Source of the DNA: Planctomycetota bacterium
GTDB taxonomy: Bacteria; Planctomycetota; B15-G4; SIAN01
Direction: 5' to 3'
NCBI GenBank assembly: GCA_031409275.1
Contig: JANNXA010000037.1
Coordinates: 1 to 64,000, forward strand
DNA: 64,000 bases
Each line of letters opens with the position of its first letter. Position 1 is the stretch's first letter. This document shows positions 59,151 through 64,000 of the stretch, one piece after another. The position numbers were made by a program, and so were the translations under genes. The notes below the pieces were generated by a model, which saw only the letters and a program-made list of their open reading frames with translations, made no database searches and had not been told where the DNA came from.

Positions 59151-59651
59151 GTGACGACGAATGCTCTTGCCGCAGCGACGGTGCTGCTCGCGGCGTCGGT
59201 GGCCTTCTCGAATCCGTGGCAGGACGCGCCGAAACCGGCTGACCCGCCTGCGCGTCCCGCGTCTTCTCCTCAGGAGGAGCGCGACCACCAGGAAGCGGAG
59301 GAGACTCCGCTCGCCGCGGAGATGGAGAAGGTCGAGCACGCCGAGCACTTTTTGCGGCGAAGCATCGGCGATGCGGCGCAGGACGCCGAGTCGCTGAAGC
59401 GCATCGCAGAAGCGCAGCAGGCGATCCTCGCGGCGAAGCTGCTGCAGCCGAAGATGACGGCGAGCGTGCCCGAGGCCGAACGGGCGAAGTTCTTGTCGGA
59501 CTATCGCCGCGAGATGGCCGGTCTGCTGATCGAGTTCACTCAGCTCGAGCGCGCGCTGCTCGACGGCGATCGTGAAGCGGCGAAGGCCTCCTACAAGAAG
59601 CTGCACGCGATGGAGGAGGTGGGCCACAACTCCTTCACCTCCGGCGACTGA
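59151..59651 (+). CDS. Secreted cytochrome b562-like four-helix protein
   Basis: Signal peptide; LAAEME near the N-terminus and GHNSF at the C-terminus match the b562 Met/His ligand layout; all-helical. Confidence 0.55.
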   Translation: MTTNALAAATVLLAASVAFSNPWQDAPKPADPPARPASSPQEERDHQEAEETPLAAEMEKVEHAEHFLRRSIGDAAQDAESLKRIAEAQQAILAAKLLQPKMTASVPEAERAKFLSDYRREMAGLLIEFTQLERALLDGDREAAKASYKKLHAMEEVGHNSFTSGD

Positions 59652-59772
59652 CGGGCGGCTGACGGGCGGCGAGGCGGCATCTGCTGCGTCGGATCGCCCT
59701 CGTTGGCTCCTTTCGGAGCCAGACTTCGGGCCGATCCTCCTTGCATCTACCACCTCGGCGCTCCGTCAGCGT

Positions 59773-60000
59773 GAGCGCCGGCGAAGGCGGCGTGAAGTGG
59801 TGAGGAGCGGCGTGAGGTGGAGGGGAGCGGCGCTGCGCGCCGGCTCGCGAAGGCGAGGGTGGCGCGAGGGGGTGAAGAGCGGCGCTGCGCGCCGGCTCGC
59901 GGAGGCGAGGGGGGCGCGAGGTGGAGGGGAGCGGCGCGAAGCGCCGGCTCGCGAAGGCGAGGGGGGCGTGAGGGGGTGAGGAGCGGCGCGAAGCGCCGGC
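59773..60000. repeat. 52-bp-period G-rich palindromic tandem array (REP-like)
   Basis: GAGCGGCGC units at 59825, 59877, 59929, 59981 plus a degenerate unit at 59773; internal CTCGC-G(A/G)AG-GCGAG hairpin. Confidence 0.85.
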
Positions 60001-60031
60001 TTGGGAGAGAAGGGCGGCTTGGGAGGGACGG

Positions 60032-60631
60032 GTGGCGGCGCGGATCGAGGAGTTGCGGGAGCGATTGGCGGAGATCGCGGCGGCGCCGAAGGACGAAGGG
60101 GTGTTGCGCGCGCTCTTTGTGCGGCCCGAGGTCGGGCAGCGGCGTGCGGTCGAGAGCGTGGAACTCGATTGCGTCTTGGGGGTGGTGGGTGACAACTGGA
60201 GCCGGCGCGGGAGTCGACGCACGGCCGATGGATCGCCGCATCCCGAGCAGCAGATCACGCTGATGAACGTGCGCGCGCTCGACGCGATCGCGGAGCGCGA
60301 CGACCGCTTCGCGCTGGCCGGGGATCAGTTGATCGTCGACTTCGATCTCGGCGTTGCGAACGTCTCGTCGGGCACGCGTCTCGCCATCGGCACGGCGGTG
60401 ATCGAGGTGACGACGCTGCCGCACACCGGCTGCGCCAAGTTCGCCGAGCGCTTCGGCGCCGACGCGCTCGCCTTCGTCAACTCGGTCGAGGGGCGCGCGC
60501 TGCGGCTACGCGGCATCAACGCGCGGGTGGTCGAGCCAGGCGCGGTGCGGATCGGCGACTCCATTCGCAAGCACCCGTTCGCGGCACCGTCCGCCCGGGC
60601 GACTCCCCCGGGCGCGACTCCGTCGCCATGA
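60032..60631 (+). CDS. MOSC domain protein
   Basis: APKDEG.L, GVVGDNW, QITLMN, LAGDQL.VD.DL, PHTGCAKF, LRGINARV..PG.VRIGD. Confidence 0.85.
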   Translation: MAARIEELRERLAEIAAAPKDEGVLRALFVRPEVGQRRAVESVELDCVLGVVGDNWSRRGSRRTADGSPHPEQQITLMNVRALDAIAERDDRFALAGDQLIVDFDLGVANVSSGTRLAIGTAVIEVTTLPHTGCAKFAERFGADALAFVNSVEGRALRLRGINARVVEPGAVRIGDSIRKHPFAAPSARATPPGATPSP

Positions 60632-60695
60632 TCCCGGCATTGAAGAGGCGCCGCGCCGAGAGGAGCGCGGGGTCGCGCTTCGGGAGATCAAGGTC

Positions 60696-61736
60696 ATGGA
60701 ACGACGTGGACGGTTCCTGTCGCTGTTGGCGCTGCTTGGAATGTCAACCGGCGCTCCGGCGCAGGAGGAGGGTGCCGTGAAGGGTGAGATGAAGCGGCCG
60801 AGCTACAGCAAGCTCGGCTACGACCTGACGCCGCCGAGTGCGGAGGCGAAGGCGAAGCGCCTCGCCGAGCTGACGCCCGAGCAGATCCGCGTCACGCAGA
60901 ACGCGGGCACCGAGCCGGCAGGCTGCGGGCTGCTGCTGAAGGAGAAGCGCGCCGGACTCTTCGCCTGCGTCGTCTGCGGGCTGCCGCTCTTCAAGTCGGG
61001 CGCGAAGTTCGAGTCGGGCACCGGCTGGCCGTCGTTCTTCGATCCGTTCGCGCCGGAGCACGTGCGCGTGAACGCCGATCGCAGCCACGGCATGGTCCGC
61101 GAAGAGATCGTCTGCGGTCGCGATGGCGCGCACCTCGGTCACGTCTTCGATGACGGCCCGCCGCCGACGGGCAAGCGCTACTGCCTCAACTCGGCGTCGC
61201 TGCGCTTCTTTGCCGATGGCGAAGCGCTGCCGCCCGAGAGCCTTCCGGTGGCAACGCAGGTGACCTACTTCGCGGGCGGCTGCTTCTGGGGTGTCGAAGA
61301 TGTCTTCTCGACGGTCGAGGGGGTGGTCGACGCCGAGTCGGGCTACATGAACGGCAAGACCGAAGCGCCGACCTACAAGCAGATCTGCAACCACGACACG
61401 GGCCACGCCGAAGCGGTGAAGATCGTCTTCGATCCGGCGCGAACGAGCTTCCGCAAGCTCGCGCAGTTCTTCTTCAAGATCCACGATCCGACCACGCTCA
61501 ACCGCCAGGGGCCTGACATCGGCGATCAGTACCGCTCGGCGATCTTCACGGCCGACGCGCAGCAACAGGCCGACGCCGTCGCCCTCATCGCCGAGCTCGC
61601 GAAGCTCCCGAAGTACGAGAAGCGGCGCATCGTGACGGTGGTCGAGCCGGCGAAGACCTTCTGGCGCGCCGAGGAGTACCACCAGGACTACCACCTGAAA
61701 AATGGCGGCAGCTGCCGGCTCCCGACCGACGACTGA
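60696..61736 (+). CDS. msrAB: Exported MsrB-MsrA fusion peptide methionine sulfoxide reductase (Cys form)
   Basis: KFESGTGWPSF, HLGHVF.DGP, RYCLNS; FAGGCFWG, TGHAE, QYRS, AEEYHQDY; signal-like N-terminus. Confidence 0.95.
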   Translation: MERRGRFLSLLALLGMSTGAPAQEEGAVKGEMKRPSYSKLGYDLTPPSAEAKAKRLAELTPEQIRVTQNAGTEPAGCGLLLKEKRAGLFACVVCGLPLFKSGAKFESGTGWPSFFDPFAPEHVRVNADRSHGMVREEIVCGRDGAHLGHVFDDGPPPTGKRYCLNSASLRFFADGEALPPESLPVATQVTYFAGGCFWGVEDVFSTVEGVVDAESGYMNGKTEAPTYKQICNHDTGHAEAVKIVFDPARTSFRKLAQFFFKIHDPTTLNRQGPDIGDQYRSAIFTADAQQQADAVALIAELAKLPKYEKRRIVTVVEPAKTFWRAEEYHQDYHLKNGGSCRLPTDD

Positions 61737-61835
61737 GACGCAAGGCCGCGACGGCGCATCGCGCCGCATCGCGGTTCAAGGCAAACGGTTCACGGCATTG
61801 CCTTCCACCTCGGCCCGCTCTCCTCGAGGCTTTTC

Positions 61836-62855
61836 ATGCGATTCGCCCTTCTTCGTCGGTTGCCGCGGTTGCCGTTGCTGGCGCTGCTCGCCCTTTCCGG
61901 TGCGAGCTGCCAGCAGTCGGAGAGCGGCGCCGCCGCCACTGGCAGTCGCGTGGGCGGATCGTCGCGCGGCTATGACCTCGCGGCCCCGAGCGCGCAGGCG
62001 AAGGCGAAGCGCCTCGCCGAGCTCACGCGCCAGCAGCTGAGCGTCACCCAGGACGCCGACACCGAAGCGCCTGGAAGCGGCGCGCTGCTGCACGAAGAGC
62101 GAGCCGGTCTCTTCGTCTGCGTGGTCTGCGGGCTCCCGCTCTTCGAATCGTCCGCCAAGTTCGATTCGGGGACGGGTTGGCCGTCGTTCTTCGCACCGTT
62201 CGCTCCGGACCATGTGGTCGTCCGCAGCGATTCGAGCCTTGGCATCACGCGCGACGAGATCGTCTGCGGCCGCGACGGTGCCCATCTCGGGCATGTCTTC
62301 GACGATGGGCCGGCGCCGACCGGCAAGCGCTACTGCCTCAACTCGGCGTCGCTGCAGTTTTTCGCGGAGGGTGAAACCTTGCCGGCCGACAGCAAACCGA
62401 TCGAAGCGCAGACCGCCTACTTCGCCGGCGGCTGATTCTGGGGCGTCGAAGACGCCTTCGCCGCCGTCGGCGGCGTGATCGATGCCGAGTCGGGCTACAT
62501 GAACGGCACCACCGACCATCCAAGCTACGCGCAGGTTTGTGGCGGCTCGACCGGCCACGCCGAGGCGGTGAAGGTCGTCTTCGATCCGACGAAGACCAGC
62601 TTCAAGCAACTGATGCTGCGCTTCTTCGAGCTGTGCGACCCATGGGGCCGGCCTGGCGAATCGGTCGACCACGGCAGCCAGTACCGCACCGCGATCTTCA
62701 CCGCGAATGGCGAACAGCTCGCGCAAGCGCGCGCGCTCGTCGCCGAGCTCGCGGCGCAACCGCAACATGCCGGCCAGCGCTTCCTCACGCTGATCGAGCC
62801 CGCGCAGACCTTCTGGCGCGCCGAGGAGTACCACCAGGACTACTACAAGAAGTAG
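61836..62855 (+). CDS. msrAB: Second MsrB-MsrA fusion, lipoprotein, with in-frame TGA (probable selenocysteine) at the MsrA catalytic site
   Basis: ORFs 61836..62435 and 62475..62855 share a frame; TGA at 62433-62435 gives FAGG*FWGVE versus FAGGCFWGVE in the paralog; lipobox ALSGASC. Confidence 0.8.
62440..62475 (+). promoter_or_regulatory. Candidate bacterial SECIS hairpin(s)
   Basis: GGGGCGTC-GAA-GACGCCTT (62440-62458) and CGCCGCC-GTC-GGCGGCG (62459-62475) just 3' of the TGA; both loops start with G. Confidence 0.5.
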
Positions 62856-62878
62856 CGCGCATTCGGCGGGGGGCCGGA

Positions 62879-63607
62879 ATGGAACGTCGGTCGGGGCTCG
62901 GGAAGACGCTGCGCGACCTGCGCAATCGCTTCGACTTCTTCGTGCGCAGCCGCCTCCGACTCGGCCGCACCGTCGACGCCGCCGCGATGCTCGCGCAAGA
63001 CGAGCCGCTCCAGGCCGAGTTCGCCGACTGCCTGTCGCGCTTCGACTGGCGGTCGGCGTTGGCCCGCTTCGCCGGCCGCGATCGGCTGGCGGTGGCGGAC
63101 GTCGGCTGCCGGACGTTCCTCTTCGCGCCGGTGCTCGAGCGCTGCTTCGCGGCGCACGGGTTGCGCGTCGCGCTGCACGGGATCGAGCTCGACGCCTTCC
63201 GCCGCTTCACCGACCTGCGCACCCGCGAGGATCACGGCCGCTTCTACGCTGCGCAAGTCGAGGCGGGGCGCTACCACGCGATCGACGTGCGCGAGTTCCA
63301 TGAGGCGCTCGACGTCGCGTTCCTGCTGAACCCCTTCGTGACCCGCGAGCCGCTGCTGCGATGGGGGTTGCCGCTGCGGACCTTCGCCCCCGAAGCGATC
63401 GTCGCCCACCTCTTCACGTTGCTGCAGCCGCGCCGCGGCCTCCTCTTCACCAGCAATCCGACCGAGGCGGAGCTCGCCATCACCCGGTCGATCGCGAGCG
63501 ACCGCGGCTTCCGCCTCCTGCAGGAGCATCATTGGCAGGCCGCCGCGCCGAGCGAGTCGACCGACCGCTGGTGCGCGCTCTGGAGCTCCGGCGGCGCCGA
63601 GGGCTGA
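62879..63607 (+). CDS. Hypothetical protein, SAM-methyltransferase-like fold
   Basis: VADVGC motif-I-like, GIELD, FLLNPF. Confidence 0.55.
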   Translation: MERRSGLGKTLRDLRNRFDFFVRSRLRLGRTVDAAAMLAQDEPLQAEFADCLSRFDWRSALARFAGRDRLAVADVGCRTFLFAPVLERCFAAHGLRVALHGIELDAFRRFTDLRTREDHGRFYAAQVEAGRYHAIDVREFHEALDVAFLLNPFVTREPLLRWGLPLRTFAPEAIVAHLFTLLQPRRGLLFTSNPTEAELAITRSIASDRGFRLLQEHHWQAAAPSESTDRWCALWSSGGAEG

Positions 63608-63702
63608 GGCCGGCGGGGTGCCGTGACGGCTGGCCGATCGCGCGGAAGCGCCGTAGGCTCGCCCCTCCTCGATCCGATTCGCGGATCGTCGTGGAGTTCC
63701 CG

Positions 63703-64000
63703 ATGGGCCGTCGCCGTCGTCTCGCCCCGCTCGCCGTCGTTGCGGCGGCACTCGCGTCGATCGCGCCCGGCACCCCGGCGCAGCAGCGCTTCGAGCGCGT
63801 CTCCGTTTCCGGCAGCGGCGTCGAAGGCAACGCCCACCAGCCTTCCGACTTCGCGCGCGTCTCCGCCGACGGGCGCTTCGTCGCGTTCAGCAGCAACGCC
63901 ACCAACCTCGCGCCGAACGACGCGAATGGCCGCCTCGACGTCTACCTGCGCGATCGGCAGCTCGGCACCACGGTGCTGATCAGCGCGACGGCGGCCGGGT
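63703..64000 (+). CDS. Secreted TolB/PD40-like beta-propeller protein (runs off window)
   Basis: Own translation: MGRRRRLAPLAVVAAALA...VSADGRFVAFSSNATNLAPNDANGRLDVYLRDR; GGAG RBS. Confidence 0.8.
   Translation, partial: MGRRRRLAPLAVVAAALASIAPGTPAQQRFERVSVSGSGVEGNAHQPSDFARVSADGRFVAFSSNATNLAPNDANGRLDVYLRDRQLGTTVLISATAAG

What the first reader, a model, noticed from the sequence alone, without database searches (positions are those of the whole stretch)
61836..62855. Probable selenocysteine MsrB-MsrA lipoprotein hidden as two ORFs
Seen: the two ORFs 61836..62435 and 62475..62855 are in one frame, separated only by TGA at 62433-62435, which falls exactly on the catalytic Cys of the MsrA GCFWG motif (FAGG-TGA-FWGVED). 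The frame then continues intact through TGHAE, QYR and AEEYHQDY, giving 339 aa with read-through. Established: Sec-for-Cys MsrA exists in some bacteria and bacterial SECIS elements lie just 3' of the UGA. Inference: an exported, lipid-anchored MsrB(Cys)-MsrA(Sec) fusion that standard annotation would call a pseudogene or split gene.
Basis: partly seen in the sequence, partly recalled or inferred. Interest (0 to 1): 0.88.

Follow-up and report, generated by a model that had tools for sequence, protein, structure and literature searches.

The report
Hidden selenocysteine MsrB-MsrA repair lipoprotein
An apparent stop codon sits exactly on the catalytic cysteine of a two-domain protein-repair enzyme and is very likely read as selenocysteine, so two annotated fragments are likely one selenium enzyme, predicted to be exported and membrane-anchored, lying right beside an ordinary cysteine copy of the same gene.

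Summary
Observation confirmed. TGA at 62433-62435 is the only stop in a 339-codon MsrB-MsrA frame and replaces the MsrA catalytic Cys. The genome has selA, selB, selD (itself TGA-containing) and tRNA-Sec. Congener G001 and two further metagenome sequences have TGA at the same codon and keep the hairpin, through one compensatory change. An 84-86% identical orthologue is split at the same residue with both halves intact. Downstream of the TGA, 36 of 37 family-conserved columns are kept. Selenocysteine is therefore very likely (about 0.93); no expression or selenium data exist. The Sec copy lacks the C-terminal resolving Cys and nests among Cys orthologues, suggesting a Cys-to-Sec switch inside this planctomycete genus. 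Lipid anchoring and the reductant are inferred only. Sec-MsrA is a known family; I found no paper describing an exported MsrB-MsrA(Sec) fusion, but this scan already reported the fused form in a separate marine Planctomycetota clade (e1-897268). Verdict: new variant of a known kind.

The parts
61836..62855 (+). Single gene for MsrB-MsrA(Sec), 339 aa on read-through of one TGA
61826..61829 (+). GAGG, Shine-Dalgarno-like, 6 nt before the ATG
   Evidence: sequence; function inferred
61836..61910 (+). Predicted lipoprotein signal peptide: basic N-region, Leu-rich h-region, LSGAS then Cys25
   Evidence: matches a recalled PROSITE-style lipobox pattern; Cys at residue 18-25 in 12 of 13 close homologues listed, absent in the upstream paralog
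62022..62360 (+). MsrB domain (Pfam SelR aa 63-175); catalytic Cys167 in RYCLNS; Ser81 (62076-62078) where the upstream paralog, G001 and PDB 3hcj have Cys
62433..62435 (+). In-frame TGA at the MsrA catalytic Cys position (GUFWG); likely selenocysteine 200
62459..62475 (+). Candidate bacterial SECIS: 7-bp stem, loop GUC (62466-62468) starting 30 nt after TGA, -12.8 kcal/mol
62412..62852 (+). MsrA domain (aa 193-339) with Tyr231, Glu243, Gln282, Tyr283, His333, Tyr336 kept; ends at YYKK without the C-terminal Cys; lineage-specific CDPWGRPGESVD loop with Cys267 (62634-62636)
60696..61736 (+). Tandem paralog: all-Cys MsrB-MsrA, 346 aa, TGC at 61281-61283, keeps both candidate resolving Cys, no lipobox Cys, no SECIS-like hairpin in register
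62879..63607 (+). 242-aa ORF without Pfam or NCBIfam hit; with the Sec gene it forms a 1.9-kb block absent at this site in congener G004

Best explanation
This is one gene whose in-frame TGA, on the catalytic codon of MsrA, is very likely decoded as selenocysteine, giving a fused MsrB(Cys)-MsrA(Sec) methionine sulfoxide reductase that is predicted to be exported and lipid-anchored and would repair both forms of oxidised methionine in envelope proteins. Shown: the frame, both domains, the Sec machinery, the hairpin, conservation of TGA and of the downstream frame. Inferred from the known SelB pathway: SelB with Sec-tRNA binds the GU-loop hairpin 30 nt downstream and inserts Sec200. Inferred from Msr chemistry: Sec200 reduces Met-S-sulfoxide and Cys167 reduces Met-R-sulfoxide. 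Because the C-terminal resolving Cys is gone, the oxidised Sec would be reduced directly by a partner, most likely one of the exported thioredoxin-like proteins of this genome fed by DsbD (least supported step, about 0.4). The Sec form likely arose from Cys inside this genus; this genome keeps the Cys gene next door, likely as a selenium-independent back-up.
For: Machinery: selA 484 bits, selB 334, selD 338.5 with one in-frame TGA, all over cut-off; tRNA-Sec 76 bits, anticodon TCA. TGA is otherwise the main stop (2568 of 3079 confident genes), so this is site-specific. Same codon is TGA in congener G001 (61% identical) and metagenome loci L160, L162. The closest orthologue is split at the same residue: P0094 (84%) ends at YFAGG and P0158 (86%) is the intact MsrA half, with the same source, contig count and contig length. 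Hairpin: all 28 cells paired in the 4 TGA sequences, with one C-G/U-A change that costs two amino-acid changes; 6 of 14 cells broken in 2 Cys congener genes. My coding of the published bSECIS model (PMC13188914 Fig. 2A legend) passes this site, fails the Cys paralog, passes 6.3% of 3000 random TGA, 44 of 87 TGA-MsrA loci, 3 of 25 Cys-MsrA, 1 of 21 chance matches. Similar GU-loop hairpins follow the TGA of selD and of other candidates here, three of which pass curated NCBIfam selenoprotein cut-offs. Selection after the TGA: 36 of 37 conserved columns kept; against the Cys paralog 2 of 37 conserved versus 55 of 102 other columns differ, Fisher p 5e-8. Across GTDB, 84 of 88 TGA-MsrA loci (80 of 84 genomes) lie in genomes with a selA match, versus 6 of 21 chance pattern matches (kin not independent). 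C-terminal Cys is present in 143 of 147 full-length homologues and absent in 32 of 64 scorable TGA-MsrAs versus 0 of 23 Cys ones. DsbD-type transmembrane domain and several signal-peptide TlpA-like W-U-GPC proteins are in the genome.
Against: No RNA, protein or selenium data. selA is nearly universal in this order (39 of 41 relatives), so its presence is necessary, not discriminating. Whole-region folding does not single the site out: z -1.97 for the 68 nt after TGA versus -2.61 for the Cys paralog, and the minimum-energy fold places the loop in a shifted register. The compensatory change is a single event. Rfam has no match. This copy is on a long branch (0.38 versus 0.09 for the paralog), pairwise dN/dS on its MsrA side is 0.48-0.79 against 0.24-0.39 on the MsrB side (dS is saturated at GC3 near 0.9), it scores 303.6 bits, under the 330 cut-off of NF004042 that the paralog passes, and the usual H-D-P-T..R-Q-G loop is replaced. 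The orthologue P0094 has His before the lipobox Cys and fails the pattern; its stop codon and hairpin could not be seen. One versus two origins of Sec in the genus is unresolved (p-AU 0.23-0.29).
Confidence: 0.88

Rival explanations
1. TGA is a true stop. The duplicate survives as an MsrB-only lipoprotein of 199 aa and the MsrA half is a dead or decaying remnant, tolerated because the upstream Cys paralog supplies MsrA.
For: TGC to TGA is one base change; a functional paralog is adjacent; long branch, raised pairwise dN/dS and an altered loop in the MsrA half; databases annotate it so.
Against: Active-site and conserved columns are selectively kept after the stop; the 86%-identical orthologous half is intact, same length, and shares the altered loop; in G001 the TGA gene is the only match found and sits at the orthologous site, with dN/dS 0.20 after the TGA against L160; hairpin conserved with a compensatory change.
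Confidence: 0.04
2. Sec is inserted, but this diverged copy is no longer a standard MsrA: the replaced loop and new Cys267, plus loss of the MsrB Cys at position 81, give changed substrate range or a new internal resolving route, so it is a specialised rather than general repair enzyme.
For: Cys267 occurs in 1 of 91 aligned MsrAs (His in 69) yet is shared with orthologue P0158; both P0002 and P0094 lack the Cys that aligns with the TEAPFC Cys of PDB 3hcj; faster protein evolution on this branch.
Against: All residues named as active site for C. oremlandii MsrA have counterparts (PMC4333827 passages); other TGA-MsrAs also vary in this loop; no model was obtained to place Cys267.
Confidence: 0.2
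3. The TGA is a sequencing or assembly error of TGC.
For: The genome is a metagenome-type assembly in 55 contigs.
Against: Contigs of two runs agree with no other letters; other species have TGA or a split at the same codon.
Confidence: 0.005
4. TGA is reassigned genome-wide (Trp, Gly or Cys) or read through non-specifically.
For: None found.
Against: TGA ends 2568 of 3079 confident genes; the only TCA-anticodon tRNA found is tRNA-Sec; in-frame TGAs with coding on both sides mostly fall on redox-Cys motifs followed by hairpins.
Confidence: 0.01

Closest known systems
Selenoprotein MsrA of Clostridium (Alkaliphilus) oremlandii, and the bacterial Sec-MsrA family (GUFWG; PMC13188914, PMC4333827)
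   Same: Sec for the catalytic Cys in GCFWG; same active-site residues; no C-terminal resolving Cys.
   Different: Here fused behind an MsrB domain, with a signal peptide, without CoMsrA's extra C-terminal helical domain, with other Cys residues, in a planctomycete that has haem-copper oxidase genes rather than an anaerobic firmicute; CoMsrA is recycled by glutaredoxin, which is untested and less likely outside the cytoplasm.
Bifunctional MsrB/A, PRK05550 / NCBIfam NF004042
   Same: B-then-A domain order over the whole profile (E 1e-90); upstream paralog is a full member.
   Different: TGA at the MsrA catalytic codon; 303.6 bits, below the 330 cut-off; lacks the C-terminal Cys found in 143 of 147 full-length homologues.
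Neisseria PilB (periplasmic or outer-membrane MsrA/B fed by DsbD through a thioredoxin domain; PMC3322552 passages)
   Same: Envelope-located fused Msr; DsbD and TlpA-like proteins available as an electron route.
   Different: No fused thioredoxin domain, opposite domain order, Sec instead of Cys.
Marine Planctomycetota MsrB-MsrA(Sec) clade (loci L053, L058, L063, L088, L107 and kin; also earlier scan note e1-897268)
   Same: MsrB-MsrA fusion with TGA at the same codon.
   Different: Separate well-supported clade (100/100); no signal peptide seen and a C-terminal Cys kept; different downstream hairpin.

Membership tests
Bacterial selenoprotein (SelB/bSECIS recoding) | In-frame UGA aligned with a conserved Cys of homologues | tested here: met
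Bacterial selenoprotein (SelB/bSECIS recoding) | selA, selB, selC, selD in the genome | tested here: met
Bacterial selenoprotein (SelB/bSECIS recoding) | bSECIS: 3-9 nt loop, 4-16 bp stem, G[G/U] in first loop positions, 16-37 nt from UGA, at most -7.5 kcal/mol | tested here: met
   model from PMC13188914, my own coding of it: loop GUC, 7 bp, 30 nt, -12.8; 6.3% background; bSECISearch itself not run
Bacterial selenoprotein (SelB/bSECIS recoding) | UGA conserved in homologues from other Sec-encoding organisms | tested here: met
Bacterial selenoprotein (SelB/bSECIS recoding) | Selenium physically in the protein | not testable with these tools
   needs 75Se or mass spectrometry
Sec-MsrA (C. oremlandii type) | GUFWG motif plus Tyr/Glu/Gln/Tyr/His/Tyr active-site set | tested here: met
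Sec-MsrA (C. oremlandii type) | No C-terminal resolving Cys | tested here: met
   Cys235 and Cys267 remain in the domain, so it is not Cys-free like CoMsrA
Sec-MsrA (C. oremlandii type) | Extra C-terminal helical domain | tested here: not met
   protein ends three residues after YHQDY; it works like CoMsrA but is not of that subtype
Sec-MsrA (C. oremlandii type) | Recycling by glutaredoxin, not thioredoxin | not testable with these tools
   biochemical assay needed
MsrB/A fusion NF004042 (PRK05550) | MsrB then MsrA in one frame | tested here: met
   (on read-through)
MsrB/A fusion NF004042 (PRK05550) | Score over curated cut-off 330 bits | tested here: not met
   303.6 bits; paralog 346.1
Bacterial lipoprotein (signal peptidase II) | Basic N-region, hydrophobic core, lipobox ending in Cys | tested here: inconclusive
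   recalled PROSITE-style pattern matches Cys25 and 11 of 13 listed close homologues, but the nearest orthologue P0094 fails it; no SignalP available
PilB-type Trx-MsrA-MsrB | Fused N-terminal thioredoxin domain and A-then-B order | tested here: not met

The most novel reading that the evidence does not exclude
An oxygen-respiring planctomycete genus is caught switching an envelope repair enzyme from sulfur to selenium: a de novo SECIS built by amino-acid changes, loss of resolving cysteines, and a selenium relay outside the cytoplasm (DsbD to Sec-TlpA to Sec-MsrA). In this genome the tandem pair acts as a selenium switch: with selenium, a lipid-anchored MsrB-MsrA(Sec); without it, the same gene yields a usable MsrB-only lipoprotein while the Cys paralog covers MsrA. 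More widely, most hidden Sec-MsrAs, including those of Melainabacteria, are exported enzymes.
Probability: 0.3. Interest if true: 0.72.

Novelty: new variant of a known kind. Interest (0 to 1): 0.52.

Why it matters
It corrects a systematic mis-annotation (MsrB plus a fragment) and gives a clean natural experiment: Cys and Sec versions of one enzyme side by side in one genome and alternating among congeners, which makes the long-standing question of why and how Cys becomes Sec directly testable (SECIS gain, loss of resolving Cys, change of reductant). It also runs against the statement in a 2026 review (PMC13188914, passage read) that aerobic bacteria rarely keep selenoproteins: this genome has two haem-copper oxidase subunit I matches and many exported Sec candidates. 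The chemistry itself (Sec-MsrA) is known.

Tried and rejected
Rfam scan of 60000-64000 found no SECIS family (1 weak unrelated match). Whole-region folding did not discriminate Sec from Cys copy. Pairwise dN/dS was unreliable because of saturated GC3; conserved-column tests were used instead. Sliding-window and informative-site scan showed only a 93-95% identity peak with G001 around the TGA, no clear mosaic tract, so recombination import of the TGA-SECIS cassette is neither shown nor excluded. Trees did not resolve one or two Sec origins; the large MsrA tree is the quick version only. No RNA holder was listed; low-share runs X5-X7 and X9 gave only short fragments and are no evidence. No sigma-70 promoter or convincing terminator. 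A single-sequence structure job did not finish, so the position of Cys267 is open. No complex prediction was run. Two key papers (PMC2671064, PMC3062254) were not held; a search for X. campestris MsrB Cys31 found 0 papers, so the role of that Cys as recycling residue is recalled, not read. The GUFW search returned unrelated papers. 21 of 109 pattern matches were not MsrA and were used as the chance control, not counted as homologues; L155 is the same gene as L023 and was dropped from the hairpin and Cys counts. The first hairpin rule was shaped on these sites and was replaced by the published model.

Full report
Observation. The frame 61836-62855 has one internal stop, TGA at 62433-62435, in YFAGG*FWGVED; read through it gives 339 aa with complete MsrB (aa 63-175) and MsrA (aa 193-339) domains. 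Contigs from two runs cover 62326-62835 with no differing letter (both may be this genome's source). Directly upstream, 60696-61736 encodes a 63% identical all-Cys MsrB-MsrA with TGC at the same place. These two are the only Msr matches in the genome. Comparison with congener G004 shows that 61742-63620, holding the TGA gene and a 242-aa orphan ORF, is an extra block; G001, G002, G003 and G004 each show one msrBA at the syntenic site. The protein of G001 is named as from a Planctomycetota bacterium, which places the genus.

Machinery. The genome has selA, selB and selD over curated cut-offs, selD with its own in-frame TGA, and tRNA-Sec. TGA remains the main stop (2568 of 3079 confident genes). 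A codon-usage and hairpin screen listed 22 TGA sites, about 19 of them on redox-like motifs; of 20 sites scanned on read-through, three pass curated NCBIfam selenoprotein cut-offs (NF041199, NF041106, NF041383), and many resemble TlpA, Prx or AhpD. selA is present in 39 of 41 relatives of the same order and tRNA-Sec in 4 of 4 congeners, so the trait is ancestral and its presence alone does not prove this site.

SECIS. A 7-bp stem with loop GUC lies at 62459-62475, the loop starting 30 nt after the TGA, -12.8 kcal/mol. It meets all four constraints of the consensus model in PMC13188914 (figure legend and passages read). My coding of the model passes 6.3% of 3000 random TGA triplets, fails the Cys paralog, and passes 44 of 87 TGA-MsrA loci, 3 of 25 Cys-MsrA and 1 of 21 chance matches. 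In 4 TGA sequences of the genus all 28 cells pair, with one C-G versus U-A change that alters two amino acids; in 2 Cys genes 6 of 14 cells are broken. Against: this is a single compensatory event, and global folding is no better than for the Cys copy (z -1.97 versus -2.61).

Conservation of the TGA. Among four congeners, G001 has TGA, G002 and G004 TGC, and G003 is cut before the codon but has the Cys-type C-terminus. A metagenome scan gave 10 loci, all TGA-MsrA: two are the G001 sequence again, L160 and L162 are new relatives of it, L159 is a more distant fusion, five are one stand-alone sequence. The nearest relative of this very copy is stored as two proteins, P0094 (195 aa, 84%, ends at YFAGG) and P0158 (118 aa, 86%), matching in source, contig count and contig length; their DNA could not be seen. 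A GTDB pattern scan gave 109 matches, 88 true MsrA, 20 fused to MsrB; 32 are labelled Melainabacteria and 31 Planctomycetota. 84 of the 88 loci (80 of 84 genomes) lie in genomes with a selA match, against 6 of 21 chance matches; related genomes are not independent and the pattern only catches [GA]G*FWGV[ED].

Is the part after the TGA alive? 36 of 37 columns conserved in at least 85% of 90 other MsrAs are kept, including counterparts of the residues named for the C. oremlandii active site (PMC4333827 passages). Against the Cys paralog, 2 of 37 conserved and 55 of 102 other columns differ (p 5e-8). GC at fourfold sites is 0.94. Against a simple picture: the branch is long (0.38 versus 0.09), pairwise dN/dS on the MsrA side is 0.48-0.79 with saturated dS, the score is under the NF004042 cut-off, and the HDPT..RQG loop is replaced by CDPWGRPGES. 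That loop, with Cys267, is shared by P0158, so it is a fixed lineage trait rather than fresh decay.

Anatomy and mechanism. The N-terminus reads as a lipoprotein signal ending in Cys25; a Cys at this place is general in the genus, but the upstream paralog has lost it and looks like a cleaved soluble export, and P0094 has a non-canonical residue before it (the pattern used is recalled). MsrB keeps its catalytic Cys167 and three of four usual zinc Cys, as its congeners do, but has Ser81 where the paralog, G001 and PDB 3hcj have Cys; that this Cys is the recycling one is recalled. MsrA ends at YYKK, without the C-terminal Cys seen in 143 of 147 full-length homologues; the G001-type Sec genes lack it too, and so do 32 of 64 scorable TGA-MsrAs against 0 of 23 Cys ones. 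By the known Msr cycle (PMC6316033, PMC13188914 passages) the enzyme would form a selenenic acid that needs direct outside reduction, as in C. oremlandii MsrA, which is 20-fold more active than its Cys form and uses glutaredoxin. In the envelope the known route is DsbD to a thioredoxin-like protein (PMC3322552 passages); this genome has a DsbD-type membrane domain and several signal-peptide TlpA-like proteins with W-U-GPC. That partner assignment is inference only.

Evolution. With the codon and hairpin masked, both Sec lineages fall inside a genus clade (100/97) whose basal member and nearest outgroups are Cys, separate from the marine Planctomycetota Sec fusions. Cys-to-Sec change within the genus is the simplest reading; one origin is not rejected and not shown (p-AU 0.23-0.29), and Sec ancestry with reversions is not excluded.

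Literature. Sec-MsrA is catalogued (PMC13188914, PMC9312934, PMC1794560, PMC2398784; passages read). In those passages MsrB is not mentioned with it (0 occurrences in PMC13188914 and PMC2398784). Searches (listings and abstracts only) showed no paper on a bacterial MsrB-MsrA(Sec) fusion, an exported Sec-MsrA or planctomycete selenoproteomes; one search showed none on Sec in Melainabacteria. The library lacks most subscription papers, two key MsrA papers were not held, and I did not read supplements of large surveys, which may list such sequences. Earlier scan notes, looked up after my own reading was formed, report the fused form in the marine clade (e1-897268) and a large exported selenoprotein set in this genome (e1-9814121).

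Verdict. A real, very likely Sec-decoded gene hidden as two fragments; a new architectural and evolutionary variant of a known selenoprotein family. Interest 0.52.

Noticed in passing
window 60696-61736: All-Cys MsrB-MsrA paralog directly upstream; unlike congeners it has lost the lipobox Cys and looks like a cleaved, soluble exported protein.
   Followed up: yes
G000 genome-wide (e.g. C47:5887+, C7:86341-, C7:112758-, C9:117722+, C45:88346+, C51:406320-, C33:63551+, C28:70576-): About 19 further TGA-plus-hairpin sites on redox motifs, many in signal-peptide proteins; four TlpA-like paralogs share an identical hairpin; genome has two haem-copper oxidase subunit I matches.
   Followed up: partly
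G000 C14:295797- (L180) and C34:64177- (L185): Large FG-GAP-repeat proteins with a C-terminal TlpA-like domain carry an in-frame TGA and a strong GU-loop hairpin at an equivalent place, not in a CxxC motif; no selenoprotein family hit in NCBIfam.
   Followed up: partly
G000 C28:70576- (L196): VPGUxxT thioredoxin-like selenoprotein (NF041383) whose C-terminal part is MsrA-like (YCFWE); the profile also hits the MsrA domain of this protein weakly, hinting at a thioredoxin-Msr link.
   Followed up: no
L052, L057, L064, L067, L076, L120 and about 30 similar GTDB loci: TGA-MsrA is frequent in Melainabacteria/Obscuribacterales genomes that carry selA, in several subclades, some with two copies; Cyanobacteria were reviewed as lacking Sec (PMC9312934 passage).
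   Followed up: partly
L050-L158 stand-alone TGA-MsrA loci: Most show an N-terminal hydrophobic segment (lipobox-like in Planctomycetota, anchor-like in Obscuribacterales), suggesting Sec-MsrA is often an envelope enzyme (hydropathy screen only).
   Followed up: partly
window 62879-63607: 242-aa ORF without family hit, methyltransferase-like by eye (VADVGC), found in 0 of 7 same-family and 4 of 12 neighbouring-family genomes; came in with the Sec copy relative to G004.
   Followed up: partly
window 60032-60631 and 59151-59651: MOSC-domain gene and a signal-peptide cytochrome b562-like gene upstream; neighbourhood syntenic in congeners.
   Followed up: no
window about 59750-59980: Intergenic stretch that appears to hold short GC-rich repeats, seen only as repetitive spurious ORFs.
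   Followed up: no
L073, L064, L083, L100: Four TGA-MsrA loci in genomes without a selA match; L073 (Coxiellaceae label) also lacks a hairpin and may be a true nonsense allele.
   Followed up: no
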